64,000 nucleotides of DNA from Acidiphilium sp. (GTDB lineage Bacteria > Pseudomonadota > Alphaproteobacteria > Acetobacterales > Acetobacteraceae): contig JAQTXH010000002.1 in assembly GCA_028688905.1 (NCBI GenBank), positions 19,061 to 83,060 of the forward strand. The letters run 5' to 3'. Below the pieces are notes generated by a model. It was not told the origin of the DNA and ran no database searches. It worked only from the letters and a program-made list of their open reading frames with translations. Position numbers and translations under genes: made by a program. Every line of letters begins with the position of its first letter. Positions within the stretch are counted from its first letter, which is position 1. Of the stretch, positions 44,119 to 63,982 are shown in pieces.

Positions 44119-44132
44119 TTGATCTTGATCAA
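44119..44132. promoter_or_regulatory. FNR/FixK box
   Basis: Perfect TTGAT-cttg-ATCAA, with TAGAAT (44156-44161) at class II spacing towards the DUF302 operon. Confidence 0.75.
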
Positions 44133-52689: not shown

Positions 52690-53304
52690 CTACCCCTGAC
52701 CGTGTTCGATCCGGATCATGCGCTGACTCGGGATCCGCAGCCGCCGGTCCTCAAGCGGAGCACGGCGATGAAGGGCCGCCATGGTCAGGCGTTCATCGCG
52801 CGCGGTCAGCAGCGCCGCTATGGCTGGTTTGAACGCGACGAGCAGATGGTTCAGCCACCCCGCGACATCGCGTGGTTCGGCATCGTGCAACGCTGGTGAC
52901 CTGAGGTGGCGGATCATCGCGTCGGCCGGTTGCCAGACCTCGTCGGTGACCCAGCGGTTGGTGGTGAACAGGCGCAACGGCAAGCCTTTGGCATCAACGG
53001 AAACCGCGATCAGATGGGAAAATGCGGCGGCAGTATCGGGTCGGGCGGTGGCCGGGGCGGGCACGAAGATGTGGAAATGCCCATGCTCGTCGCGCAGGCG
53101 CTGCGACCGCGGATGGGCGTGATAATAGAAACGCCAGAAACTGTGCGGATCGATCGCGTCCGGCTGCGGATAATGCGCCCACTCGGCGAAGGAGGCCGCC
53201 CCTTCGAGCACGCGGGCCGGTGCGCTTTGCCCCCGCGCCGCCCAGGCGATGATCTGGTCGATCACCGCTTCGCCGGCGCGGCGCATCGGTGGTTTTCGGG
53301 TCAA
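52690..53304 (-). CDS. His-rich protein of unknown function (resembles DUF6969 as I recall it; needs an HMM check)
   Basis: FYYHAHP, EHGHFHIF, SHLIAVSVD and RLFTTNRWVT; no signal peptide. Confidence 0.75.
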   Translation of the reverse strand: MTRKPPMRRAGEAVIDQIIAWAARGQSAPARVLEGAASFAEWAHYPQPDAIDPHSFWRFYYHAHPRSQRLRDEHGHFHIFVPAPATARPDTAAAFSHLIAVSVDAKGLPLRLFTTNRWVTDEVWQPADAMIRHLRSPALHDAEPRDVAGWLNHLLVAFKPAIAALLTARDERLTMAALHRRAPLEDRRLRIPSQRMIRIEHGQG

Positions 53305-53540
53305 GGGGCGCAGGGGTTCACTGGTTTTTTCGCGGTCTTTTTCATGGTTTTGGCGGATTTTTGGGTCTGATGCTTGGCTGTCGTCGGTGCCGGGGCGCAG
53401 GGGTTTTGCGGGGTTGCGGCGTAGCTGATGCCGACGGGGTTGAGCGCCCCGACCGCGGCGGGTAGGGCAGGGGTCAACCCGATCGCGATTGCGAGCAGGG
53501 AGGCCGTGCGGCGGGCCGGTTTCAGTGTGTGAGCGGTCAT
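53301..53540 (-). CDS. 79-aa exported peptide with two NPCAP motifs and a Lys-rich linker
   Basis: Signal-like N-terminus; mature ATPQNPCAP...KSAKTMKKTAKKPVNPCAP. 13 nt after the yeeE stop and 4-nt overlap with the next gene. Confidence 0.75.
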   Translation of the reverse strand: MTAHTLKPARRTASLLAIAIGLTPALPAAVGALNPVGISYAATPQNPCAPAPTTAKHQTQKSAKTMKKTAKKPVNPCAP

Positions 53541-53553
53541 CGGAGGGGCGATC

Positions 53554-54150
53554 CTAGTGTTTGGGTTGGGCGGTGCCGGCCGGGGTGAAGGGGCTTACGG
53601 TGGTCCGGGGTGAGGCGGGTTTGGCGCGATCGACCAGCCAGCTGATCGTGACCAACACGGCCAGCAGCACTGCGAGCACCACCCAGGGGGATACGTGCAG
53701 CAGTTGCGGCACGGTGATCGAAGCCGGGCCGGTCTGGGCATAAATCCAGGATTTGATCGCCGGAAACACTGCGTTGAACGCCAGCGTGCCGCCGCCGATG
53801 CCGATCAGGAACAGCAGCCCGTCCAGCCGGCCGGACGCCATTGCGACCGCCGAGGTGCCGGGGCAATAGCCGCCGACCGCCATGCCGATGCCAACGCCGG
53901 CACCACCGAGCAGGGTGCCCCAGAAATAGACCGAGGGGACGAAAATATCGGACAGATGGATCAGGCCGAGCGCGCGCGAGGCGTAGATCAGAATGCCGCT
54001 GACCACGATGGCGGTGAACATCACCTTGAACACCGCCCAGTTGGTGAACCGCAATTGGGCGGTGAGACAGCCGGGATCGCCGAAGCCGGCACCTTCGAGA
54101 ATAACGCCGAACAGAATCCCGAGTGCCAGTCCGGTCCAGGGGATCATCAT
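53554..54150 (-). CDS. YeeE/YedE-family sulfur-compound transporter, subunit 2
   Basis: FGVILEGAGFGDP...VFKVMFTAI...GVGMAVGGYCPGTS. Confidence 0.9.
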   Translation of the reverse strand: MMIPWTGLALGILFGVILEGAGFGDPGCLTAQLRFTNWAVFKVMFTAIVVSGILIYASRALGLIHLSDIFVPSVYFWGTLLGGAGVGIGMAVGGYCPGTSAVAMASGRLDGLLFLIGIGGGTLAFNAVFPAIKSWIYAQTGPASITVPQLLHVSPWVVLAVLLAVLVTISWLVDRAKPASPRTTVSPFTPAGTAQPKH

Positions 54151-54674
54151 GAGATTGACTTTCGTTGCCAGAGGGGTTTGAAAATGGTACCGAACGCGAC
54201 GCCTGCGGCAAAAAATCCGATCAGGAACAGGAAACCGGCGGCCGCGAGCGGGGCGGAGCCTGAGAGGCCCATGCCGCTGGTGCAGCCCATCGCCATCCGC
54301 GCGCCGAAGCCCGAGGCGGCACCGCCGAGCAGAGCCAACCCGAGTCGCCCGAATGAGCGGACCCGGGGCGGACCGTCGATCTGGGGTCCGAACCGCCGGC
54401 CGAGCAGACTGCCGGCGAGCGCGCCGACGATCACGCCGATCACTTCCCAGACGATCCAGGAATTGAGGCCGGATCGGGCATAAGCGGCGAGGTAGTCATG
54501 CGCGCCGAACGCGTGGGGAGCCACGCTGGCAACACCGACCGCTGTCATCGCGGTGGTCGCGCCGGTCACACCGAGGCCGTGACCGGTGGCGAAAAACGTC
54601 GCGAACAGCACGACGCCGAGGGCGATTCCCGAAAGATAGGGATTCCATCGTGGCCTTGGGTTAACCGCTCTCAT
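54147..54674 (-). CDS. YeeE/YedE-family sulfur-compound transporter, subunit 1
   Basis: WNPYLSGIALG, GLGVTGA and GFGARMAMGCTSG. Confidence 0.9.
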   Translation of the reverse strand: MRAVNPRPRWNPYLSGIALGVVLFATFFATGHGLGVTGATTAMTAVGVASVAPHAFGAHDYLAAYARSGLNSWIVWEVIGVIVGALAGSLLGRRFGPQIDGPPRVRSFGRLGLALLGGAASGFGARMAMGCTSGMGLSGSAPLAAAGFLFLIGFFAAGVAFGTIFKPLWQRKSIS

Positions 54675-54716: not shown

Positions 54717-55691
54717 TCAGAAGGCGGATTTGCCGTTGACCACCGGAAGCGACGCATCGCGCGTCCATTCCGACATCGATCCGCTGTAGAGTTTCACGTC
54801 AGGCACGTGGGCGACCTCACGCAGGGCGAACCAGTCGAGCGAGGCGAGATGGCCGGTGTTGCAGAAAGTGTAGGCCGGCTTGTCGGTCGAAATGCCGGCC
54901 TTGTGCATCGCGGCAACGACCTCGGCGCGGTCGAGCATGCCCTCGCCATCGGATGTCAGTACGACCGAATACGGCAGGTTGAGCGCGCCCGGAATGGTGC
55001 CGACCTTCCGATCGACCGCCGGCCTGACCTTGCCTTCATACTGCTTCACAGGTCGTGCATCGACCAGTTGGAAACGATGCGTGTTGAGATCGGCCTGCAC
55101 CATCGCCTGGGTCGCGAGCAGACTGGCATCGAAATGCGGGGTGAAGCTGGCGACGGCGGGTGTGACATCGCCGGTGGCGACCGGGTCTTTCGGGTTGGCG
55201 AGCCAGGCGTGGTCGCCACCGTTCATGATCGAGACATTGTTCATGCCTTCGATCCGCAGGGTCCAGTAGACCCGCGTGGTCGCCGGGAAATCGCCCTTGA
55301 TCGCGCCGGCCGGTACCAGGATGACGCGGCTGTCGTCATTAATGCCGACGCCGGCAATGACTTTGGCGATGGTGGCTTCGGGCGGCAGCACGAAGGGCAA
55401 GCCGTTCATCGGCACCCGCCAATGATCGCTCAAAAAGCCGGTGAAGACCGCGCCGGGAATATGCTCCTTCTCGTAGGCCGGCTTCTGCTTGTCGAAATCA
55501 TAGACCTCGACGACGACCAGATTGGGCGTGTGCAGATGGGCGACGAGCCAGGCTGGAGTGACCAGCGCCGGTGCGACCGGGCCTGCCGCCTGCGCGGCGA
55601 TGACACCCAGGGGTGCCAGGGCCAGAAGGGCCGCCACCGCAGTGGCGCGGCCAAGCTGGGCGCGGAGCGAGCGTACTATTGGAATATTCAT
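54717..55691 (-). CDS. Periplasmic tandem-domain sulfurtransferase (rhodanese)
   Basis: Signal peptide; LVTPAWL, HIPGAVF, MNGGDHAW, LVDARP, GTIPGA, active-site FCNTGHLAS and LYSGSMSEW. Confidence 0.92.
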   Translation of the reverse strand: MNIPIVRSLRAQLGRATAVAALLALAPLGVIAAQAAGPVAPALVTPAWLVAHLHTPNLVVVEVYDFDKQKPAYEKEHIPGAVFTGFLSDHWRVPMNGLPFVLPPEATIAKVIAGVGINDDSRVILVPAGAIKGDFPATTRVYWTLRIEGMNNVSIMNGGDHAWLANPKDPVATGDVTPAVASFTPHFDASLLATQAMVQADLNTHRFQLVDARPVKQYEGKVRPAVDRKVGTIPGALNLPYSVVLTSDGEGMLDRAEVVAAMHKAGISTDKPAYTFCNTGHLASLDWFALREVAHVPDVKLYSGSMSEWTRDASLPVVNGKSAF

Positions 55692-55818: not shown

Positions 55819-55832
55819 TTGACCCAGATCAA
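55819..55832. promoter_or_regulatory. FNR/FixK box upstream of the psr-like operon
   Basis: TTGAC-ccag-ATCAA; TAATGT at 55855-55860 gives class II (-41.5) geometry. Confidence 0.72.
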
Positions 55833-55928
55833 TGACCCTGAGAGTTAGGACCGGTAATGTAATATTGTCAGGCTGCGGCTAGAGTCCGCAGTCTGGCTCG
55901 TCGGTGTTGACCTGTGGAGGAGATCGGC

Positions 55929-58124
55929 ATGCAGCGCCGTGACTTTATCAAGCTCAGTGCCACGGTCGGCTCAAGCGCGCTGCTCGGCTCGATGCTGGGC
56001 GGATGCACCGAGCCGGCCGAATGGCAGCGCATGATGAACGCGCCACCCGCCACCGAGACCGCGACGGTCTGCAACATCTGTTTCTGGTCCTGCGCCGCCC
56101 GCGTCCACACCCAGGGGTCGCGCCTGTGGAAGATCACCGGCCAGCCGGGCGATCCGCATTCCGATGGGCGGTTGTGTACCCGCGGCACCGGTGGGGTGGG
56201 GGCTTATTACGATCCGAACCGGCTGATCAAACCGCTGCTGCGCGTTACCCGCAACGGCCAGCAGCGCTTCGAGGTGGCAAGCTGGGACGACGCGCTCGGG
56301 GTGATTGCGGAACGGTTGACCAAGGTCGCCAAAACCTACGGGCCGGATCGGCTCGCCTCGCTGGTGCATGGGCCGGGGGCGGAACATTTCGTGCATTTGA
56401 GCCGCGCCTTCGGCAGCGACAGCATCGCCGAACCCGCCTTCGCGCAATGCCGCGGGCCGCGCGACACCGGATTTTTTCTCACCTTCGGCGAGGGCATCTC
56501 CTCGCCCGAGCAGACCGACATGTCGAATGCGCGCTGCGTCGTGCTGATCGGCACGCATCTCGGCGAGAATCTGCATAACAGCCAGGTGCGGACGTTTGCC
56601 GATGCGATCCGGAACGACGCGACGATCATCACGGTCGATCCGCGCTTCTCGGTGGCGGCCGGCAAGTCGCAGCACTGGCTGCCGATCAAGCCCGGCACCG
56701 ACATCGCCCTGCTGCTCGCCTGGATCAACGTGATCCTGGCCGAAAAACTGTATGATGCCGATTATGTCGCGCGCAACACGATCGGGCTGCCGGAACTCGC
56801 CGCCTATGTCGCGCCGTTCACGCCGGAATGGGCCTATCCCGCGACCGGGCTGGAACCCGAGGCGATCCGGCGGACCGCGCGGTTGATGGCGGCGGCGGCA
56901 CCGGCCACGGTCATTCATCCCGGCCGGCACACCGTGTGGTGGGGCGATGATACCCAGCGCGCCCGCGCGATGGCGATTCTGGCCGGGCTGCTCGGCATCT
57001 GGGGCAGCAAGGGCGGCTATTACCTGCCGGAAGCGGCGCTGATCCCGGATTACCCGCTGCCGGAATATCCGGTGCCGAAATCCTCCTGGCGCGACATCAC
57101 CCTGGCGAAATATCCGCTCGCCGGCGCGCCGGTCACCAATGTGATCATCGACAACGCGCTGGGCAAAAACGCGCATTACCGCGCCCTGCTGATCTATGAC
57201 ACCAACCTGCCGATGACGATGCCCGGCATTCGCGAGAAATTGCAGACCGCATCGCAATCGCTCGATCTGATCGTCGCGATCGATGTGCAGCCCTCCGAAG
57301 TGACCGGCTATGCCGATGTCGTGCTGCCGGAGTGTTCGTATCTGGAGCGTTATGACGGCTTGCGCAACGATCCCGAAATCGAACCCTGCATCGCGCTGCG
57401 CTCGCCCGCCTTGCCGCCACGCGGGGAGTCGAAGCCGGGCTGGTGGATTGCCAAGGAGATCGGCAACCGGCTTGGGGTGGCCGATTATTTCCCCTGGAAG
57501 GATTACGCCGAGGTGGTCGATTGGCAACTCAGGCAGGTCGGCAGTTCGCTCGAGGAGCTGAAAAGCACCGGGATCAGGTTTTTTCCGCGCACGACGCCGC
57601 TCTATTATAAAAAAGGCGAGACCATTCCGTTCAAGACCCCGAGCGGCAAGATCGAGCTGTATTCGACGACCCTGAAGGACGCCGGGTTCGATCCGATCCC
57701 GCGCTTCACCCCGCCGCAGGAGGCGAGGCCAGGGTTTTTCCGCCTCAATTACGGTCGCGCGCCGCAGCATAGTTTCAGCCGCACCCAGAACAATCCGGTG
57801 TTGTTTCAGTTGATGCCGGAAAACCTGGTGTGGATTCATCCGACCGTCGCGCGGCAATTCGGCATCGAGACTGCGAGCTATATCCAACTGGTCAATCAGG
57901 ACGGGGTGGTGAGCAATCGGGTGCGGGTGCGGGTGACCGAGCGGACCCGGCCGGATTCGGTGTGGCTGGTGCATGGGTTCGGCCATACCGCCGAAGGGTT
58001 GAAACTCGCGTTCGGCCGGGGGGCCGATGATTCCGCGCTGATGACGAATATTCTCTACGACCCGATCATGGGAGGCACCGGCATGCGCGGCAATTACGTG
58101 ACCTTTCGCAAGGCGGCGGCGTGA
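55929..58124 (+). CDS. psrA: Tat-exported molybdopterin oxidoreductase, polysulfide/thiosulfate reductase (PsrA/PhsA)-like catalytic subunit
   Basis: QRRDFIK signal, CNICFWSC...LCTRG cluster, AQCRGPR Mo-Cys motif, TVDPRFS, PSGKIELYS and HSFSRTQNN. Confidence 0.85.
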   Translation: MQRRDFIKLSATVGSSALLGSMLGGCTEPAEWQRMMNAPPATETATVCNICFWSCAARVHTQGSRLWKITGQPGDPHSDGRLCTRGTGGVGAYYDPNRLIKPLLRVTRNGQQRFEVASWDDALGVIAERLTKVAKTYGPDRLASLVHGPGAEHFVHLSRAFGSDSIAEPAFAQCRGPRDTGFFLTFGEGISSPEQTDMSNARCVVLIGTHLGENLHNSQVRTFADAIRNDATIITVDPRFSVAAGKSQHWLPIKPGTDIALLLAWINVILAEKLYDADYVARNTIGLPELAAYVAPFTPEWAYPATGLEPEAIRRTARLMAAAAPATVIHPGRHTVWWGDDTQRARAMAILAGLLGIWGSKGGYYLPEAALIPDYPLPEYPVPKSSWRDITLAKYPLAGAPVTNVIIDNALGKNAHYRALLIYDTNLPMTMPGIREKLQTASQSLDLIVAIDVQPSEVTGYADVVLPECSYLERYDGLRNDPEIEPCIALRSPALPPRGESKPGWWIAKEIGNRLGVADYFPWKDYAEVVDWQLRQVGSSLEELKSTGIRFFPRTTPLYYKKGETIPFKTPSGKIELYSTTLKDAGFDPIPRFTPPQEARPGFFRLNYGRAPQHSFSRTQNNPVLFQLMPENLVWIHPTVARQFGIETASYIQLVNQDGVVSNRVRVRVTERTRPDSVWLVHGFGHTAEGLKLAFGRGADDSALMTNILYDPIMGGTGMRGNYVTFRKAAA

Positions 58125-58666
58125 TGACCCATTATGCGATGGTGATCGACACCAGAACCTGCATCGGCTGTACTGACTGCGTCGATGCCTGCCGGATGGA
58201 GAACAACGTCCCCGAAGGTCTATGCTATGATTGGGTGGTCGAGATCACCAAGGGGCGCTATCCGAATTTGACCACCGAGTTTCGCTCTGAGCGCTGCAAT
58301 CATTGCTCCAACGCCACCTGTGTCACCGCCTGCCCGACCGGGGCGAGCCAGTATTGGAACGGCAGCAACATCGTCGTGGTCGATGCGACCAAATGCACCG
58401 GCTGCAAGGCCTGCATCGCCGCCTGCCCGTATGACGCAAGGCTGATCATGCAGCCGCAGGGCTACATCGGCAAATGCACCTTCTGTGTGCAACGGGTGCA
58501 ATATGGCGAGGACCCCGCCTGCGTCGCGGTATGCCCGGCGCATGCGATGCATTTCGGACTGCTCGATGATCCGACCAGCAACGTCAGCCGATTGCTGGCG
58601 GAGCGCGAGAATTACACCCTGCATCCGGAAACCGGCAACGAGCCGAACGTATTCTATTTGCGCTGA
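58121..58666 (+). CDS. psrB: Four-cluster [4Fe-4S] electron-transfer subunit (PsrB/NrfC-like)
   Basis: CIGCTDCVDAC, CNHCSNATCVTACP, CTGCKACIAACP and KCTFC...PACVAVCP. Confidence 0.92.
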   Translation: MMTHYAMVIDTRTCIGCTDCVDACRMENNVPEGLCYDWVVEITKGRYPNLTTEFRSERCNHCSNATCVTACPTGASQYWNGSNIVVVDATKCTGCKACIAACPYDARLIMQPQGYIGKCTFCVQRVQYGEDPACVAVCPAHAMHFGLLDDPTSNVSRLLAERENYTLHPETGNEPNVFYLR

Positions 58667-58690: not shown

Positions 58691-59731
58691 ATGCGCGAGG
58701 AGGTTCTGGCCAGTGTTCTGGCCAATCCAGGTGTCGAGCCGACGCTCGCGATCTGGGGCTGGCAGATTGCGACCTATCTGTTTCTCGGTGGTCTCGCCGC
58801 CGGGTTGATGGTGTTTTCCGGCTGGACGGTGCTGAGTGGGCGCGCGGCGCGCACACCCTTCGCCGCCAATCGCGCCCCGCTGATCGGGCTGGTGCTGCTC
58901 GGAGTAGGCATGGGAACGTTGTTTCTCGATCTGGAGCGCAAGATCAACGTCTGGCGGTTCTACGCGTTCCTGCACGAGACCTCGCCGATGTCATGGGGGG
59001 CGTGGATTCTGATTTTGGTGTTCCCGGTGCTCGCCCTGCTGGCTCTGGCCGGGCTGCCGGCGGGGTTCCCCTGGTTGGCCGGGAAACTGGGTCGTCTGCC
59101 GATCATCGGTCCGCGTGCCGTCACGCCGCTGATCGGGCTGTGCGGCAGGGTGCGGCGACCGCTGGCGTTTCTGGGGATCGCGCTCGGCATCGGGCTCGGC
59201 ATCTATACCGGGGTGCTGCTGTCGAGCTTCAATGCGCGGCCGTTCTGGCATTCGGCGCTGCTCGGTCCGCTGTTTCTGGTCTCCGGCCTGTCGACCGGCG
59301 CGGCGCTGATGATCCTGGGCGCCGGCACGAAGGAGGAGCGGCATCTGTTCGGCCGGATCGACCTCGGCCTGATCGTGGCCGAACTCGCGCTGATCTTTCT
59401 GTTCGTGATCGACATGCTGAACGGTGACGCGTTGCAGCGGAGCGCGGTGGCGCATGTGCTCGGCGGGTCCGAGACGCAATTGTTCTGGATCGGGTTCATC
59501 GGCCTCGGCCTCGCGATACCACTGGTGCTGGAGGCCGCGATGTGGTGGCGCTCGATGACGCCGATCGCAGGTGCTGCGTCGGTCCTGGTGCTGCTCGGTG
59601 GCTTTCTGCTGCGCGACGTCATGGTAACCACCGGCCAGCAGACCACCTGGACCAGCTTCAACAATCAGTTCAACCCCGGATTGCTCGCCAGACTGCGCAC
59701 CGATGGCGAAAATCCGAACGGACGTTTTTAG
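58691..59731 (+). CDS. psrC: NrfD/PsrC-family membrane anchor
   Basis: WGWQIATYLFLGGLAAG, LFLDLE, SPMSWGAW, YTGVLLS...RPFWH..LLGPLFLVSGLSTG and GGFLLR. Confidence 0.92.
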   Translation: MREEVLASVLANPGVEPTLAIWGWQIATYLFLGGLAAGLMVFSGWTVLSGRAARTPFAANRAPLIGLVLLGVGMGTLFLDLERKINVWRFYAFLHETSPMSWGAWILILVFPVLALLALAGLPAGFPWLAGKLGRLPIIGPRAVTPLIGLCGRVRRPLAFLGIALGIGLGIYTGVLLSSFNARPFWHSALLGPLFLVSGLSTGAALMILGAGTKEERHLFGRIDLGLIVAELALIFLFVIDMLNGDALQRSAVAHVLGGSETQLFWIGFIGLGLAIPLVLEAAMWWRSMTPIAGAASVLVLLGGFLLRDVMVTTGQQTTWTSFNNQFNPGLLARLRTDGENPNGRF

Positions 59732-59741
59732 GAGACGACCG

Positions 59742-60410
59742 ATGCAACGCACAAAGCTCTCCCGCACCCGGATCTCCGGCCTCGCGCTGGCTCTCGGTGC
59801 GATTCCCGCCCTGCCGATGGCGATCCCGGCGCTCTCGCCGCTCGGCGTCGCCCGCGCCGATGCCCAAGACGCGGCGACGCTGCAAACCATGGCCCAGGCG
59901 GTCGCGCGCGGGGAGACCCTGGTGACACCACACCATCTGCAAGGGCTGATCCTGGCGAAACGGCGCGATTTCACCCTGATCGACCTGCGCGCCCCGGGCG
60001 ATTTCGCCGCCGCCCATATCCAGGGTGCCACCAACATGCCGCTCCCCAAACTGCTCGAATCGGCGGAAATCGTGAAACTGCGCCGGATGCCGCAGGTCAT
60101 CGTGTACTCCACCACGACCGACGAAGCGGCCCAGGGCGTGGTGCTGCTGCGCCTGTCCGGCGTGGCGGCGATGGCGCTGGAGGGCGGGCTGCTCGCCTGG
60201 TCGCACATGGTCACGGCGGCATCGACACCGCAGACCGCCGCGATCGTGCGCGCCCTGAACGATTGCCCGCAACCGGCACCGGCGGTCATCCCCGCGCTCG
60301 GCAGCATCGTGCCGGCAAGCGCCACCACACCCGCCGTGTCGCCGGTGCCAGCGCCGCCCACCAAGCCGAAACCAAAAACCCCCATTAATCTGAACGCCAT
60401 GTGCGGTTAG
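59742..60410 (+). CDS. Exported rhodanese-fold protein lacking the catalytic Cys, with Pro-rich arm and C-terminal MCG
   Basis: LIDLRAPGDFAAAHIQGA, VIVYSTTT (Ser at the usual Cys position) and LEGGLLAW; start 59742 after AGGAG. Confidence 0.82.
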   Translation: MQRTKLSRTRISGLALALGAIPALPMAIPALSPLGVARADAQDAATLQTMAQAVARGETLVTPHHLQGLILAKRRDFTLIDLRAPGDFAAAHIQGATNMPLPKLLESAEIVKLRRMPQVIVYSTTTDEAAQGVVLLRLSGVAAMALEGGLLAWSHMVTAASTPQTAAIVRALNDCPQPAPAVIPALGSIVPASATTPAVSPVPAPPTKPKPKTPINLNAMCG

Positions 60411-60856
60411 ATTTCTGGCGGCAACACCGGCAGGTGGTGTGCGGCGCGTTGGGCAAAGGCTTCGATGGTGCGGTTAAGCATGATCGGCGCGATTCTTTCG
60501 GCAATCCGCTCGAATACCGCCGTGCGGAAACTAAGGTCGAAATCCGCGCGCACGGCGGTGCTGGTCGGGCACAGGCTGCGCAATTGCCAGACCAGGCGGA
60601 ATTTGCGGAACGGCGATTGAGAGGAACTGATTTGCAGCCGATGTGGCGGGTCGAGTTCCGCGACCGAGCGGAATTGCAGGGATAATCCGGCGAGGCTGAC
60701 GACCTGTTCAACCTCGAGATGCTGCGGCGCGCGCTGATCGATCCGCGCGGCCTGCCAGCCCGGCATGTAGAGCGGGTAGGATTCGATGTCCGCGATCAGG
60801 GCGAATAATGGGGCGATCGGATAGGCGAAGACGCGCTCGACGTGATGCGTCGTCAT
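60407..60856 (-). CDS. Coq10/RatA-like START (SRPBCC) domain protein
   Basis: LFALIADIESYPLYMPGW, SQSPFRKFRLVW and MLNRTIEAFAQRA. Confidence 0.85.
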   Translation of the reverse strand: MTTHHVERVFAYPIAPLFALIADIESYPLYMPGWQAARIDQRAPQHLEVEQVVSLAGLSLQFRSVAELDPPHRLQISSSQSPFRKFRLVWQLRSLCPTSTAVRADFDLSFRTAVFERIAERIAPIMLNRTIEAFAQRAAHHLPVLPPEI

Positions 60857-60945: not shown

Positions 60946-60959
60946 TTGATCCATATCAA
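60946..60959. promoter_or_regulatory. FNR/FixK box upstream of the hydrogenase genes
   Basis: Perfect TTGAT-ccat-ATCAA; TATAAT at 61012-61017 would place it near -71.5 (class I). Confidence 0.75.
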
Positions 60960-61067: not shown

Positions 61068-62189
61068 ATGGGCGCGGAGAGCCAGACTTTTTACCAGTTG
61101 ATGCGCGCTCAGGGTACTAGTCGGCGTTCGTTTCTCAAATTTTGCAGCCTGACCGCCGCCGCCCTCGGGCTGGAGCCGGTCTATGCCGCGCAGATCGCCC
61201 ACGCCATGGAAACCAAGCCGCGGATTCCGGTGCTCTGGATGCATGGGCTGGAATGCACGTGCTGTTCGGAATCCTTCATCCGTTCGGGGCATCCGCTGGC
61301 CAAGGATGTCATCCTGAAAATGATCTCGCTCGATTACGACGACACGCTGATGGCCGCCGCCGGGTACCAGGCCGAGGCGATTCTCGACGAAATCCCGAAA
61401 AAATACCCGGGCGAATATATTCTCGCGGTCGAGGGCAATCCGCCGCTCAACGAGGATGGCATGTATTGCATCGTCGGCGGCAGGCCGTTCGTCGACAAGC
61501 TCAAGGCGGTGGCGGCGAATGCCAAGGCGGTGATCGCCTGGGGTGCCTGCGCCTCCTGGGGCTGCGTGCAGGCGGCGCGGCCCAACCCGACGCAAGCGAC
61601 GCCGATCGACAAGGTGATCACCGACAAGCCGATCATCAAGGTGCCGGGCTGCCCGCCGATCGCCGAGGTGATGACCGGGGTGATCAGCTACATGATCACC
61701 TTCGGGCGCATCCCCGATCTGGACAGTCGCGGCCGGCCCCTGATGTTCTACGGCCAGCGGATTCACGACAAATGCTATCGCAGGCCGCATTTCGACGCCG
61801 GCGAGTTCGTCGAGACCTGGGACGATCAGGGGGCGCGCGAGGGCTACTGCCTCTATAAAATGGGTTGTCGGGGGCCGACCACCTATAACGCGTGCTCGAC
61901 GGTGCGCTGGAACGGCGGGGTGTCGTTTCCAATCCAGGCCGGCCACGGCTGCATCGGCTGCTCGGAAGACAATTTCTGGGACAATGGCCCGTTCTACCAG
62001 CCGCTGTCGCATGTCGGTGCCGGGTTCGGGGTCGAGGCGAGTGCCGACGAAATCGGCGCGGCGGCGGCGGGCGTGGTCGGTGCCGGCGTGCTCGCCCATG
62101 CCGGGGCCAGCGCGATCAAGCATTGGCAGAAAATCAAGCCGAAACCGAAGTCTGACGACCATCCGCCGCATGAGGGAGACCGGCCATGA
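61068..62189 (+). CDS. hupS: Membrane-bound [NiFe]-hydrogenase small subunit, O2-tolerant group 1d
   Basis: Tat SRRSFLK; ECTCCSES and GACASWGC (supernumerary Cys19/Cys120 positions); [12 protein letters not shown]; C-terminal TM. Confidence 0.96.
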
Positions 62190-63982
62190 CGACCGTCACC
62201 ACGCCGAACGGCTTCAGCCTCAATAACAGCGGACGGCGCATGGTGGTCGATCCGATCACGCGGATCGAGGGGCATCTGCGCTGCGAGGTCAATCTCGACC
62301 AGAATAACGTCATCCGCAACGCGGTGTCGTCGGGCACCATGTGGCGCGGCCTCGAGGTGATTTTGAAGGGCCGCGATCCGCGTGATGCCTGGGCTTTTTG
62401 CGAACGCATCTGCGGTGTGTGTACCGGCATCCACGCGCTGGCCTCGGTGCGGGCGGTGGAGGATGCGCTCGCCATCACGATTCCGGAAAACGCCAACACC
62501 ATTCGCAACATCATGCTGGCGACGCAATGGGCGCAGGATCATCTGGTGCATTTCTATCATCTGCACGCGCTCGACTGGGTCGATGTGATCAGCGCGCTGA
62601 AGGCCGATCCGAAAGCGACCAGCACGCTCGCGCAGAGCATCTCGCCGTGGCCGAATTCCTCGCCGGGCTATTTTCGCGATGTGCAGACGAGGCTGAAAAA
62701 ATTCGTCGATTCGGGTCAATTGGGTCCGTTCATGAACGGCTACTGGGGTAATCCGGCGTATCTGCTGCCACCGGAAGCCAATCTGATGGCGGTGACGCAT
62801 TATCTCGAGGCGCTCGATTTTCAGCGCGAAATCGTGAAAATCCACACCGTGTTCGGCGGCAAGAACCCGCATCCGAACTGGCTGGTCGGCGGCATGGCCT
62901 GCGCGATCAATCTCGACGGCCCGCTCGCCGCCGGCGCGCCGGTGAACATGGTGCAGCTCAATCTGGTATCCTCGATCATCGACCGCACGATCGACTTCAT
63001 CGATCAGGTCTATGTTCCCGATCTGATCGCCATTGCGACCTATTACAAACACTGGGATTACGGCGGCGGCCTCGCCGGGCGGAATCTGATGTCCTATGGC
63101 GATTACCCGGTCGCCGCCAACAACTGGTCGGACGCCAATCTGCTGATCCCGCGCGGGGCGATCATCAACGGCAAGCTCGACGAGATCATGGAGATCGACC
63201 TGCGCGACCCCAGCCAGGTGCAGGAGTTCGTCGATCATTCCTGGTATCGCTACCCCGACGAGGCGATCGGGCTGCACCCCTGGGCCGGCATCACCGATCC
63301 CAATTTCGAGCTCGGCCCCCACACGGTCGGCACCAAAACCGACATCAAGCAACTCGATGAAGGTGCCAAATATTCCTTCATCAAAGCCCCCCGCTGGCGC
63401 GGCCACGCGATGGAGGTCGGCCCGCTGTCGCGCTTCACTTTAGGCTACGCCAAGGGGATTGCGGAGTTCAAGGAGCCGGTCGACAAGGTGCTGACCGATC
63501 TCGGCCTGCCGCTCGGTGCCTTGTTCACCACGCTCGGCCGCACCGCCGCGCGCGGGCTGGAAGCCTCCTGGGCCGCGCACAAGATGCGCTTCTTCCACGA
63601 CCGGCTGATGGAAAACCTGCGCGCGGGCGATCTGGTCACCGCGAACACCGAAAAATGGGAACCGGCGACCTGGCCGGCCGAGGCCCGCGGCATCGGGCAT
63701 GTCGAGGCACCGCGCGGCGCGCTCGGCCATTGGGTGCATATCAAGGATCGCAAGATCGAAGCCTATCAGGCCGTGGTGCCGACCACCTGGAACGGCTCCC
63801 CGCGTGATCCGGCCGGCAATATCGGCGCGTTCGAGGCGGCACTGCTGAACACCCCGCTCGCGGACTCCAGCCAGCCGCTGGAAATTTTGCGCACGCTACA
63901 CAGTTTCGATCCCTGCCTCGCCTGTGCCACCCATGTGATCGCGCCCGATGGCAGCGAACTGGTGCGCGCCGACGTGCTTTAG
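62186..63982 (+). CDS. hupL: [NiFe]-hydrogenase large subunit
   Basis: [39 protein letters not shown] and a cleavable C-terminal extension. Confidence 0.98.

What the first reader, a model, noticed from the sequence alone, without database searches (positions are those of the whole stretch)
59742..60410. Pseudo-rhodanese with a swinging-arm cysteine as the fourth psr gene
Seen: the canonical active-site Cys is Ser (VIVYSTTT). The only Cys are DCP after the domain and MCG at the very end of a roughly 45-aa Pro/Ala/Lys linker, echoing the Lys/Pro-then-Cys end of the NPCAP peptide. Known: Wolinella Sud delivers polysulfide to Psr using its catalytic Cys, and SoxY carries sulfur on a C-terminal GGCGG arm. 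Inferred: a new tethered sulfur shuttle for PsrA.
Basis: partly seen in the sequence, partly recalled or inferred. Interest (0 to 1): 0.55.

Follow-up and report, generated by a model that had tools for sequence, protein, structure and literature searches.

The report
Cysteine-tipped pseudo-rhodanese of polysulfide reductase
The last gene of a polysulfide-reductase operon in an acid-loving Acidiphilium encodes an exported rhodanese-like protein that lacks the usual catalytic cysteine but carries a conserved cysteine at the end of a long floppy tail; it belongs to a widespread family I found undescribed in the papers searched, and it probably carries sulfur to the respiratory enzyme.

Summary
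ORF 59742-60410 (+) is a 222-aa exported protein with a rhodanese fold. Ser123 sits where the catalytic Cys should be. There are exactly two Cys: C175 (NDCP) and C221 (terminal MCG). Between them lies a Pro/Ala/Lys-rich stretch that AlphaFold2 models with low confidence.

All 13 complete close homologs end in Cys plus at most one small residue. In an unbiased set of sediment relatives, 76 of 76 end in Cys and 76 of 76 have Ser at the catalytic position.

The gene is a true fourth psr gene. psrC lies directly upstream in all ten GTDB loci with visible context and in 73 of 75 informative metagenome loci. The distance from the domain to the terminal Cys is held at about 56-77 residues even though the linker sequence varies.

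I read it as a tethered persulfide or polysulfide carrier for PsrA, analogous to SoxY or DsrC but built on a Cys-less rhodanese scaffold. The chemistry and the partner are inferred. The co-occurring split YeeE channel is an alternative partner.

No paper I could search describes the Cys-tipped tail. This scan has already met the same family on other DNA, mainly Bacteroidota. This copy is an acidophile, alphaproteobacterial variant ending in C-G with a second conserved Cys.

The parts
59742..60410 (+). rhdX: the whole gene for the 222-aa Cys-less rhodanese-like protein with a Cys-tipped tail (stop codon TAG at 60408-60410)
   Evidence: ORF and RBS; Pfam PF00581; homologs start at the same Met
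59742..59858 (+). Signal peptide, residues 1-39: basic n-region MQRTKLSRTR, Pro-rich hydrophobic core, ARA/D cleavage motif. There is no lipobox, unlike many sediment relatives.
   Evidence: Read from the sequence. No signal-peptide predictor was available, so cleavage is inferred. A loose lipobox pattern matched 0 of 16 in the acidophile group and 52 of 76 in the sediment relatives.
59913..60221 (+). Rhodanese-fold core, about residues 58-160
   Evidence: Pfam match 75-154; AF2 blocks with pLDDT 75-88; Foldseek hits to Alr3790, YgaP and Sud
60108..60110 (+). Ser123 codon (TCC) at the position of the catalytic Cys of active rhodaneses
   Evidence: Aligned with Cys of VLYCSVGRRS. Homologs have S, A, G or V there. 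Ser in 76 of 76 sediment relatives.
60264..60266 (+). Cys175 codon (TGC) in the conserved RALNxCP motif just after the extra C-terminal helix
   Evidence: Nearly invariant in alignment A1. The equivalent AIACYF Cys is present in 73 of 76 sediment relatives. It is absent in the Chondrinema protein.
60270..60380 (+). Pro/Ala/Lys-rich flexible linker, residues 177-213, including the conserved PAxIPxL stretch at its start
   Evidence: Composition; pLDDT below 50; variable sequence but constrained length
60381..60407 (+). Conserved terminal peptide P-I-N-L-N-A-M-C-G, with Cys221 at 60402-60404
   Evidence: Alignment anchored on the terminal Cys (n=16): L at -4 in 16/16, N or K at -3, G or A at -2, M at -1 in 12/16, C in 16/16, followed by G in 14/16
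55929..58124 (+). psrA: molybdopterin catalytic subunit with a Tat signal MQRRDFIKL (the ORF also opens at a GTG at 55914)
   Evidence: Pfam and NCBIfam; E 2e-193 to Thermus PsrA 2VPW with the Mo-ligand Cys kept
58121..58666 (+). psrB: four-cluster ferredoxin subunit
   Evidence: Pfam Fer4_11 and NCBIfam NrfC/DsrO-like matches
58691..59731 (+). psrC: NrfD-type membrane quinol subunit, ending 11 nt before rhdX
   Evidence: Pfam NrfD 5.5e-44
54717..55691 (-). Exported tandem rhodanese with an intact catalytic loop (FCNTGH), divergent from psrA; a candidate loader of the carrier
   Evidence: Pfam match with 2 rhodanese stretches. Conserved beside psr in L006, L010, L011 and L014.
53554..54674 (-). 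Two half-size YeeE/YedE (PmpAB-like) sulfur-transport genes (54147-54674 and 53554-54150)
   Evidence: Pfam Sulf_transp, N- and C-terminal halves. Present in the module at all 24 metagenome loci with enough upstream sequence to show them.

Best explanation
RhdX is a periplasmic accessory protein of a PsrABC-type quinol:sulfur reductase. It is a rhodanese-fold body that has lost its own catalytic Cys, followed by a disordered arm of about 65 residues that ends in a recognition peptide, P-[VI]-x-L-[NK]-[GA]-M-C-G-COOH. I propose the following cycle. Cys221 becomes loaded with sulfane sulfur as a persulfide or short polysulfide, either by direct attack on sulfur or through the exported active rhodanese encoded in the divergent operon. 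The arm then swings the loaded Cys into the substrate funnel of PsrA. There the outer sulfur is reduced to H2S with electrons from quinol, supplied here by the neighbouring uptake [NiFe] hydrogenase. Cys175 may act as a resolving or parking thiol. Shown: the anatomy, the family-wide conservation of the terminal Cys, the conserved arm length, and the operon linkage. Inferred: export, sulfur loading, docking into PsrA and the direction of the reaction. A protein-bound substrate would make particular sense in an acidophile, because free polysulfide is unstable at low pH (my own knowledge).
For: 1. The terminal Cys is invariant while the linker drifts. It is present in 16 of 16 acidophile-group proteins. 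It is the last residue in 76 of 76 unique sediment relatives that were selected by motifs in the N-terminal half only.
2. The catalytic position is never Cys, so the usual rhodanese chemistry is not available.
3. The tail is modelled with low confidence (pLDDT below 50). The distance from the GGxxxW motif to the terminal Cys is held at 56-72 residues (n=16) and 67-77, with one at 87 (n=76), as expected for an arm that must span a fixed distance.
4. The last 8 or so residues form a conserved peptide with small residues around the Cys, as expected if it fits a partner's pocket.
5. Synteny: psrA-psrB-psrC-rhdX in all ten GTDB loci with context, and psrC directly upstream on the same strand in 73 of 75 informative metagenome loci. 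Several acidophile-type loci (L007, L011-L014) keep psrABC-rhdX with no yeeE in the sequence held (10.8-20.5 kb).
6. Active exported rhodaneses travel with it: the tandem rhodanese here, and a secreted triple rhodanese with two intact Cys loops directly upstream of rhdX in L020 and L018.
7. PsrA is a close homolog of structurally defined Thermus PsrA and keeps its own Mo-ligand Cys, so the tail is more likely substrate than ligand.
8. RhdX and a close PsrA are present or absent together. Neither was found in 200 sampled genomes of the same family, including two of the same genus.
Against: No experiment or complex model links C221 to sulfur or to PsrA. In Bacteroidota and Thermodesulfobacteriota the carrier gene sits next to yeeE rather than psrC, and a published YeeE/PmpAB-sulfurtransferase fusion exists (PMC9324843). 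Both facts favour the channel as partner. The residues before the Cys are Lys-rich in acidophiles and Glu-rich in sediment relatives, so no single electrostatic mechanism fits all members. The mid Cys is missing in Chondrinema, so a two-Cys mechanism cannot be general. The direction of the reaction is unknown for the sediment clade: it could be sulfur reduction or sulfide oxidation onto the carrier.
Confidence: 0.5

Rival explanations
1. The Cys-tipped arm serves the split YeeE/YedE (PmpAB-like) channel rather than PsrA. It hands sulfane sulfur or thiosulfate-derived sulfur into, or takes it from, the Cys-lined pore. Psr then acts on free substrates, and RhdX couples periplasmic sulfur chemistry to uptake.
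For: The split yeeE pair is part of the conserved module wherever enough sequence is visible. In L015 and in Chondrinema the order is psrC-yeeE-yeeE-rhd. PMC9324843 reports a PmpA/B protein fused to a sulfurtransferase domain in the same kind of cluster.
Against: In Proteobacteria rhdX always follows psrC, whereas yeeE lies upstream or in a divergent operon. Acidophile-type loci L007 and L011-L014 keep psrABC-rhdX with no yeeE in the sequence held (10.8-20.5 kb).
Confidence: 0.2
2. RhdX is a DsrC-like redox co-substrate. Cys175 and Cys221 together hold a bridging sulfur (a trisulfide) or cycle between dithiol and disulfide, and PsrABC regenerates the reduced form.
For: Two conserved Cys in both proteobacterial subgroups: 16 of 16 in the acidophile group and a mid Cys in 73 of 76 sediment relatives. 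PsrB and PsrC score against DsrO and DsrP models.
Against: The Chondrinema protein has no mid Cys. The motif around the mid Cys differs between subgroups (NxCP against ACYF). The Cys-Cys spacing is long and variable, unlike the fixed 10-residue spacing in DsrC (my own knowledge).
Confidence: 0.15
3. RhdX is a non-catalytic structural, assembly or docking subunit. Its terminal Cys ligates a metal, forms a covalent link to a partner, or serves as an anchoring or processing signal, with no sulfur carried.
For: Cys-less rhodanese domains elsewhere act as interaction modules (my own knowledge). PsrA of RhdX-linked clusters has an extra invariant Cys, C208, which is Tyr in Thermus PsrA and in classical PhsA. 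That Cys could be a disulfide partner.
Against: PsrA keeps its own Mo ligand. A disordered arm of about 65 residues with conserved length is unusual for a static ligand. Active sulfurtransferases and sulfur channels co-occur with it. I know of no bacterial sorting or lipidation signal of this form.
Confidence: 0.1

Closest known systems
Sud, the periplasmic polysulfide-sulfur transferase of Wolinella succinogenes (PDB 1QXN)
   Same: Periplasmic single-domain rhodanese-fold helper of polysulfide reductase. The fold match is found by Foldseek at rank 49. The proposed role, bringing bound sulfur to PsrA, is the same.
   Different: Sud binds polysulfide on the active-site-loop Cys (my own knowledge). 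RhdX has Ser there and puts its conserved Cys at the end of a disordered arm of about 65 residues. RhdX is fixed inside the psr operon.
SoxY of the SoxYZ carrier (thiosulfate oxidation)
   Same: A carrier protein whose substrate-bearing Cys sits in a short, small-residue peptide at the flexible C-terminus (GGCGG-COOH, my own knowledge, against MCG, EGC or GGC-COOH here) and is presented to partner enzymes.
   Different: SoxY has an unrelated fold and needs SoxZ. No SoxY Pfam match was found here. Its partners are Sox enzymes, not a molybdoenzyme of the Psr type. The arm here is far longer.
DsrC (co-substrate of dissimilatory sulfite reductase)
   Same: A C-terminal arm with two conserved Cys that carries sulfur into a reductase active site and is recycled by a membrane complex whose DsrO and DsrP subunits are relatives of PsrB and PsrC (for that relationship).
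   Different: DsrC is cytoplasmic, has a different fold, and has a fixed 10-residue Cys spacing with a short structured arm (my own knowledge).
Alr3790-type and other Cys-less rhodanese homology domains (PDB 3HIX, 3K9R, 3ILM; 1YT8 domain 1)
   Same: These are the best sequence and structure matches, and they too lack the catalytic Cys.
   Different: The aligned regions of these chains end with the rhodanese domain. They show no counterpart of the Cys-tipped tail or of the psr context. Their functions are unknown.
phsABC-pmpAB-sulfurtransferase clusters noted in Ca. Electryonea clarkiae, Ca. Lernaella stagnicola and Caldithrix abyssi (PMC9324843)
   Same: The same kind of gene module: a Psr/Phs enzyme, two half YeeE genes and a rhodanese-like 'sulfurtransferase'.
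   Different: That paper states that the function of the sulfurtransferase is unknown. In the passages I read, it does not mention the lost catalytic Cys or the terminal Cys.

Membership tests
Rhodanese homology domain (Pfam PF00581) | Profile match above the curated threshold | tested here: met
   40.7 bits against a cut-off of 22.2, residues 75-154
Rhodanese homology domain (Pfam PF00581) | Alpha/beta rhodanese fold | tested here: met
   AF2 core pLDDT 75-88. Foldseek probability 1.00 to Alr3790, YgaP, TSTD1 and Sud.
Catalytically active rhodanese / sulfurtransferase (Sud, GlpE, PspE type) | Cys at the first position of the active-site loop after the central beta-strand | tested here: not met
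   Ser123 aligns with that Cys. Homologs have S, A, G or V. Ser in 76 of 76 sediment relatives.
Sud (Wolinella polysulfide-sulfur transferase) | Periplasmic location | tested here: inconclusive
   An N-terminal signal-like sequence with an AXA motif is visible. No predictor or experiment was available.
Sud (Wolinella polysulfide-sulfur transferase) | Homodimer that binds polysulfide covalently at the loop Cys | tested here: not met
   The loop Cys is absent. The oligomeric state could not be tested.
SoxY | SoxY fold or Pfam family, with a SoxZ partner | tested here: not met
   Rhodanese is the only Pfam match. None of the nine neighbouring proteins scanned matched a Sox family.
SoxY | C-terminal GGCGG carrier peptide | tested here: not met
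   The end is NAMCG. It is similar in kind (a Cys flanked by small residues at the C-terminus) but it is not the motif.
DsrC | DsrC fold with two Cys 10 residues apart in the C-terminal arm | tested here: not met
   No DsrC Pfam match. The Cys spacing is 46 residues.
Unnamed family of Cys-tipped pseudo-rhodaneses linked to Psr (defined in this scan) | Cys-less rhodanese domain, then a disordered linker, then a Cys within the last two residues | tested here: met
Unnamed family of Cys-tipped pseudo-rhodaneses linked to Psr (defined in this scan) | Encoded in a psrABC module, directly after psrC or after the split yeeE pair | tested here: met
   The gene starts 11 nt after psrC here. All ten GTDB loci with context and 73 of 75 informative metagenome loci show the same linkage.

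The most novel reading that the evidence does not exclude
In this clade the physiological substrate of PsrABC is not free polysulfide at all. It is sulfur bound to the terminal Cys of RhdX, a dedicated protein co-substrate cycle like DsrC with DsrAB. That would explain how sulfur respiration can work at acid pH, where polysulfide does not persist. It would also define a new, cross-phylum class of periplasmic sulfur-carrier proteins built on a dead rhodanese.
Probability: 0.3. Interest if true: 0.82.

Novelty: new variant of a known kind. Interest (0 to 1): 0.66.

Why it matters
What polysulfide and sulfur reductases actually reduce, and how insoluble sulfur reaches a buried molybdenum site, is unresolved. 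[quoted passage not shown] A conserved operon-encoded protein with a Cys-tipped arm gives a concrete, testable answer, namely a protein-bound persulfide as substrate. The family extends from acid-mine Alphaproteobacteria and marine-sediment Proteobacteria to Thermodesulfobacteriota and Bacteroidota (leads; Chondrinema checked). It may therefore matter for sulfur cycling in many anoxic habitats. It is currently annotated only as 'rhodanese-related sulfurtransferase', a name that implies a chemistry the protein cannot perform. The Acidiphilium copy, with its neighbouring hydrogenase and FNR-type boxes, and a cultured Chondrinema litorale carrying the module on a plasmid, offer possible experimental systems.

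Tried and rejected
- A 400-genome sample of the phylum found the family and a close PsrA only in the window's own genome. That gave too few negatives to test whether PsrA residues track the presence of RhdX.
- The broad alignment A2 was too diverse for a pattern scan. I used subgroup A3 instead.
- A search for longer, fused forms of RhdX found none in the close family.
- The top profile hits, of 800-2300 aa, are arrays of ordinary Cys-containing rhodaneses that score by summing repeats. They are not relatives of interest.
- I considered the tail Cys as the Mo ligand and rejected it, because PsrA keeps the ligand Cys aligned with that of Thermus PsrA.
- I considered PsrA C474 as a partner Cys and rejected it, because it is also present in classical E. 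coli-plasmid PhsA. C208 remains a clade marker of unknown meaning.
- A scan of the own genome for other P/A-rich, Cys-ended ORFs returned only RhdX, the NPCAP peptide and what look like spurious high-GC frames.
- Literature searches on rhodanese with Psr, C-terminal cysteine, swinging arm, YeeE and pmpAB found no description of the tail.
- AF2 on the single chain did not dock the tail onto its own domain.

Full report
**Observation**

The ORF at 59742-60410 (+) starts 11 nt after the psrC stop, behind an AGGAG box. It is the last gene before a convergent SRPBCC gene. It encodes 222 residues with exactly two cysteines, C175 and C221.

Pfam finds one rhodanese domain at residues 75-154 (E 3.4e-10, above the curated threshold). 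The residue at the catalytic position is Ser123, in VIVYSTTTDEA. In a pairwise alignment it falls on the Cys of a canonical VLYCSVGRRS loop.

The best matches among solved structures, by sequence and by fold, are rhodanese-like domains that also lack the Cys: Alr3790 and domain 1 of 1YT8. Sud of Wolinella (1QXN) is also found, at rank 49.

Residues 177-216 are 30% Pro, with Ala and Lys also common. AlphaFold2 with a 16-sequence alignment models the core at pLDDT 75-88 and everything after residue 178 below 50. The N-terminus looks like a Sec signal peptide ending in ARA/D. That is my reading of the sequence, since no predictor was available.

**Is the tail cysteine conserved?**

A word-indexed search found only 15 close relatives, from Acidiphilium, Acidocella and metagenomes. 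The 13 complete ones all end in C-G or C-N, never have Cys at the catalytic position (S, A or G), and keep the mid Cys in RALNxCP.

Eleven GTDB loci added the endings LKGMCS and LNGMCN. A Thermodesulfobacteriota protein only 35% identical has YSNGSTH at the catalytic loop, an ACP mid Cys, a Lys-rich linker and ends in KLKGC.

A profile search of 1.8 billion representatives showed a much larger family. Dozens of single-domain proteins of 200-300 aa end in ...LI[IV]xEGC-COOH.

That list was read with the tail in mind, so I made an unbiased test. Eighty metagenome loci were retrieved using only two motifs in the N-terminal half. All 76 unique complete ORFs end with Cys as the very last residue. 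All 76 have Ser at the catalytic position, and 73 have the mid Cys.

The linker sequence is poorly conserved, but the distance from the GGxxxW motif at the end of the domain to the terminal Cys is 56-72 residues in the acidophile group (n=16). It is 67-77, with one at 87, in the sediment group (n=76). The last residues form a subgroup-specific peptide: P-[VI]-x-L-[NK]-[GA]-M-C-G here, and x-E-[SG]-C in sediments. Conserved arm length with a drifting sequence is what a reach-constrained tether would show.

**Is it a psr gene?**

The upstream genes are a PsrA-type molybdoenzyme, a four-cluster ferredoxin PsrB and an NrfD-type PsrC. PsrA has a Tat signal, matches Thermus thermophilus PsrA 2VPW at E 2e-193, and keeps the Mo-ligand Cys.

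The order psrA-psrB-psrC-rhdX is kept in all ten GTDB loci where context is visible. These loci often also hold the exported tandem rhodanese, DUF6969, the SRPBCC gene and the [NiFe] hydrogenase.

In the metagenome set, psrC lies directly upstream on the same strand in 73 of 75 loci that have enough upstream sequence. The usual order is yeeE-yeeE-psrA-psrB-psrC-rhdX.

The exceptions are instructive. In L020 and L018 the gene directly upstream of rhdX is a secreted triple rhodanese with two intact catalytic loops.

A cultured Bacteroidota species, Chondrinema litorale, carries psrABC-yeeE-yeeE-rhd-rhd on a plasmid. Its first rhodanese-like protein ends in KKKKKVQGGCS and has Gly at the catalytic position.

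Within the window's own bacterial family, a sample of 200 genomes including two of the same genus contains neither RhdX nor a close PsrA. The module therefore behaves as an accessory island that comes and goes as a unit. The own genome holds a single copy.

**How it most likely works**

Three things are shown:
- The protein cannot do ordinary rhodanese chemistry.
- Strong selection acts on a cysteine at the tip of a disordered arm of fixed length.
- The gene is tightly linked to a Psr-type reductase, to active exported rhodaneses and to a split YeeE channel.

The rest is inferred. I propose that Cys221 is loaded with sulfane sulfur and is inserted into the PsrA funnel, where the sulfur is reduced to sulfide. 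This resembles the way SoxY presents its C-terminal Cys to Sox enzymes and DsrC presents its arm to DsrAB (established knowledge of those systems). The nearby uptake hydrogenase suggests H2 to quinone to Psr as the direction in this organism. FNR-type boxes lie upstream of psrA at 55819 and upstream of the hydrogenase genes at 60946; there are three such sites in the window against 0.25 expected. They suggest anaerobic induction. In an acidophile a protein-bound substrate would get round the instability of polysulfide at low pH. I give this reading about 0.5.

**Rivals**

The arm may instead serve the YeeE pair. In other phyla the carrier gene lies next to yeeE, and a PmpAB-sulfurtransferase fusion has been reported (PMC9324843). 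However, several acidophile loci keep psrABC-rhdX with no yeeE in the sequence held (10.8-20.5 kb).

A DsrC-like two-Cys cycle is possible for the proteobacterial members. It cannot be general, because Chondrinema lacks the mid Cys.

A purely structural role, or a role as a metal ligand, is least likely. PsrA has its own Mo ligand.

**Comparison with the known**

RhdX is a member of the rhodanese homology superfamily. It fails the defining test of active sulfurtransferases, Sud included. It resembles SoxY and DsrC in principle but shares neither fold nor motif with them.

The only paper I found that mentions this kind of cluster states that the function of the sulfurtransferase is unknown. In the passages I read, it does not note the missing catalytic Cys or the terminal Cys (PMC9324843). 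Eight literature searches found no description of the tail. The library does not cover most subscription journals, so this is not proof of absence.

Earlier notes of this scan describe the same family at least eight times on other DNA, mostly Bacteroidota with GGC ends. My results were obtained independently on this window and agree with them.

Three features are particular here:
- the alphaproteobacterial, acidophile setting;
- the penultimate rather than terminal Cys (C-G-COOH);
- a soluble form with no lipobox, together with the second conserved Cys.

**Verdict**

I class it as a new variant of a known kind, a swinging-arm sulfur carrier on a dead-rhodanese scaffold that is dedicated to a Psr-type enzyme. 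Interest is 0.66.

Noticed in passing
window 55929-56021 (PsrA N-terminus): The Tat signal of PsrA ends in a lipobox-like L-G-G-C. This Cys (C31) is invariant in all 29 PsrA sequences from RhdX-linked proteobacterial loci. It is absent from the Chondrinema, E. coli-plasmid PhsA and G539 homologs. PsrA of this clade may be a Tat-exported lipoprotein, or C31 may be a functional thiol.
   Followed up: partly
window 56535-56537 (PsrA Cys208): Cys208 (ARCVVLIG) is invariant in 29 of 29 RhdX-linked PsrA sequences and in Chondrinema. It is Tyr in Thermus PsrA, E. coli-plasmid PhsA and G539. It could be a clade marker or a partner thiol for the carrier. Its position in the structure was not mapped.
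   Followed up: partly
L020:6541-7908 and L018:2-1153: A secreted triple-rhodanese protein lies directly upstream of rhdX, and in L020 it sits between psrC and rhdX. Domains 1 and 3 have intact Cys loops and domain 2 is Cys-less. It is a candidate dedicated loader of the carrier.
   Followed up: partly
window 53301-53540 (-): The 79-aa NPCAP peptide has a signal peptide that resembles that of RhdX. tblastn with the peptide hits the RhdX signal region in L007 and L008 at 33-61% identity. Like RhdX it has two Cys, with the last one near the C-terminus. It is conserved at 72% in the Acidiphilium MAG locus L006.
   Followed up: partly
window 55819-55832, 60946-60959, 44119-44132: Three FNR/FixK-like TTGAY-N4-ATCAA boxes are present (0.25 expected by chance). 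One lies in the divergent psr / tandem-rhodanese intergenic region and one upstream of the hydrogenase genes, which suggests joint anaerobic control.
   Followed up: partly
window 60407-60856 (-): An SRPBCC / Coq10-like (RatA family) gene converges on rhdX, overlapping its stop by 4 nt. A homolog lies downstream of rhdX on the opposite strand in L008 and L010-L013, and between psr and the hydrogenase genes in L011-L013 and sediment locus L049. It may be a quinone-binding helper of the chain from H2 to Psr.
   Followed up: no
L100 (Chondrinema litorale plasmid NZ_CP111047.1, 246578-252515): A cultured Bacteroidota isolate carries psrABC, two yeeE halves and two rhodanese-like genes on a 310-kb plasmid next to an IS4 transposase. 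The first rhodanese-like protein ends in ...KKKKKVQGGCS, and the second (138 aa) has no Cys tail. It is a possible experimental model and a hint that the module is mobile.
   Followed up: partly
window 61068-63982 (+): The small and large subunits of an uptake-type [NiFe] hydrogenase follow the psr cluster. They are conserved at 84-87% identity next to psrABC-rhdX in acid-mine MAG loci L011-L013, and at 67-74% in four sediment loci.
   Followed up: no
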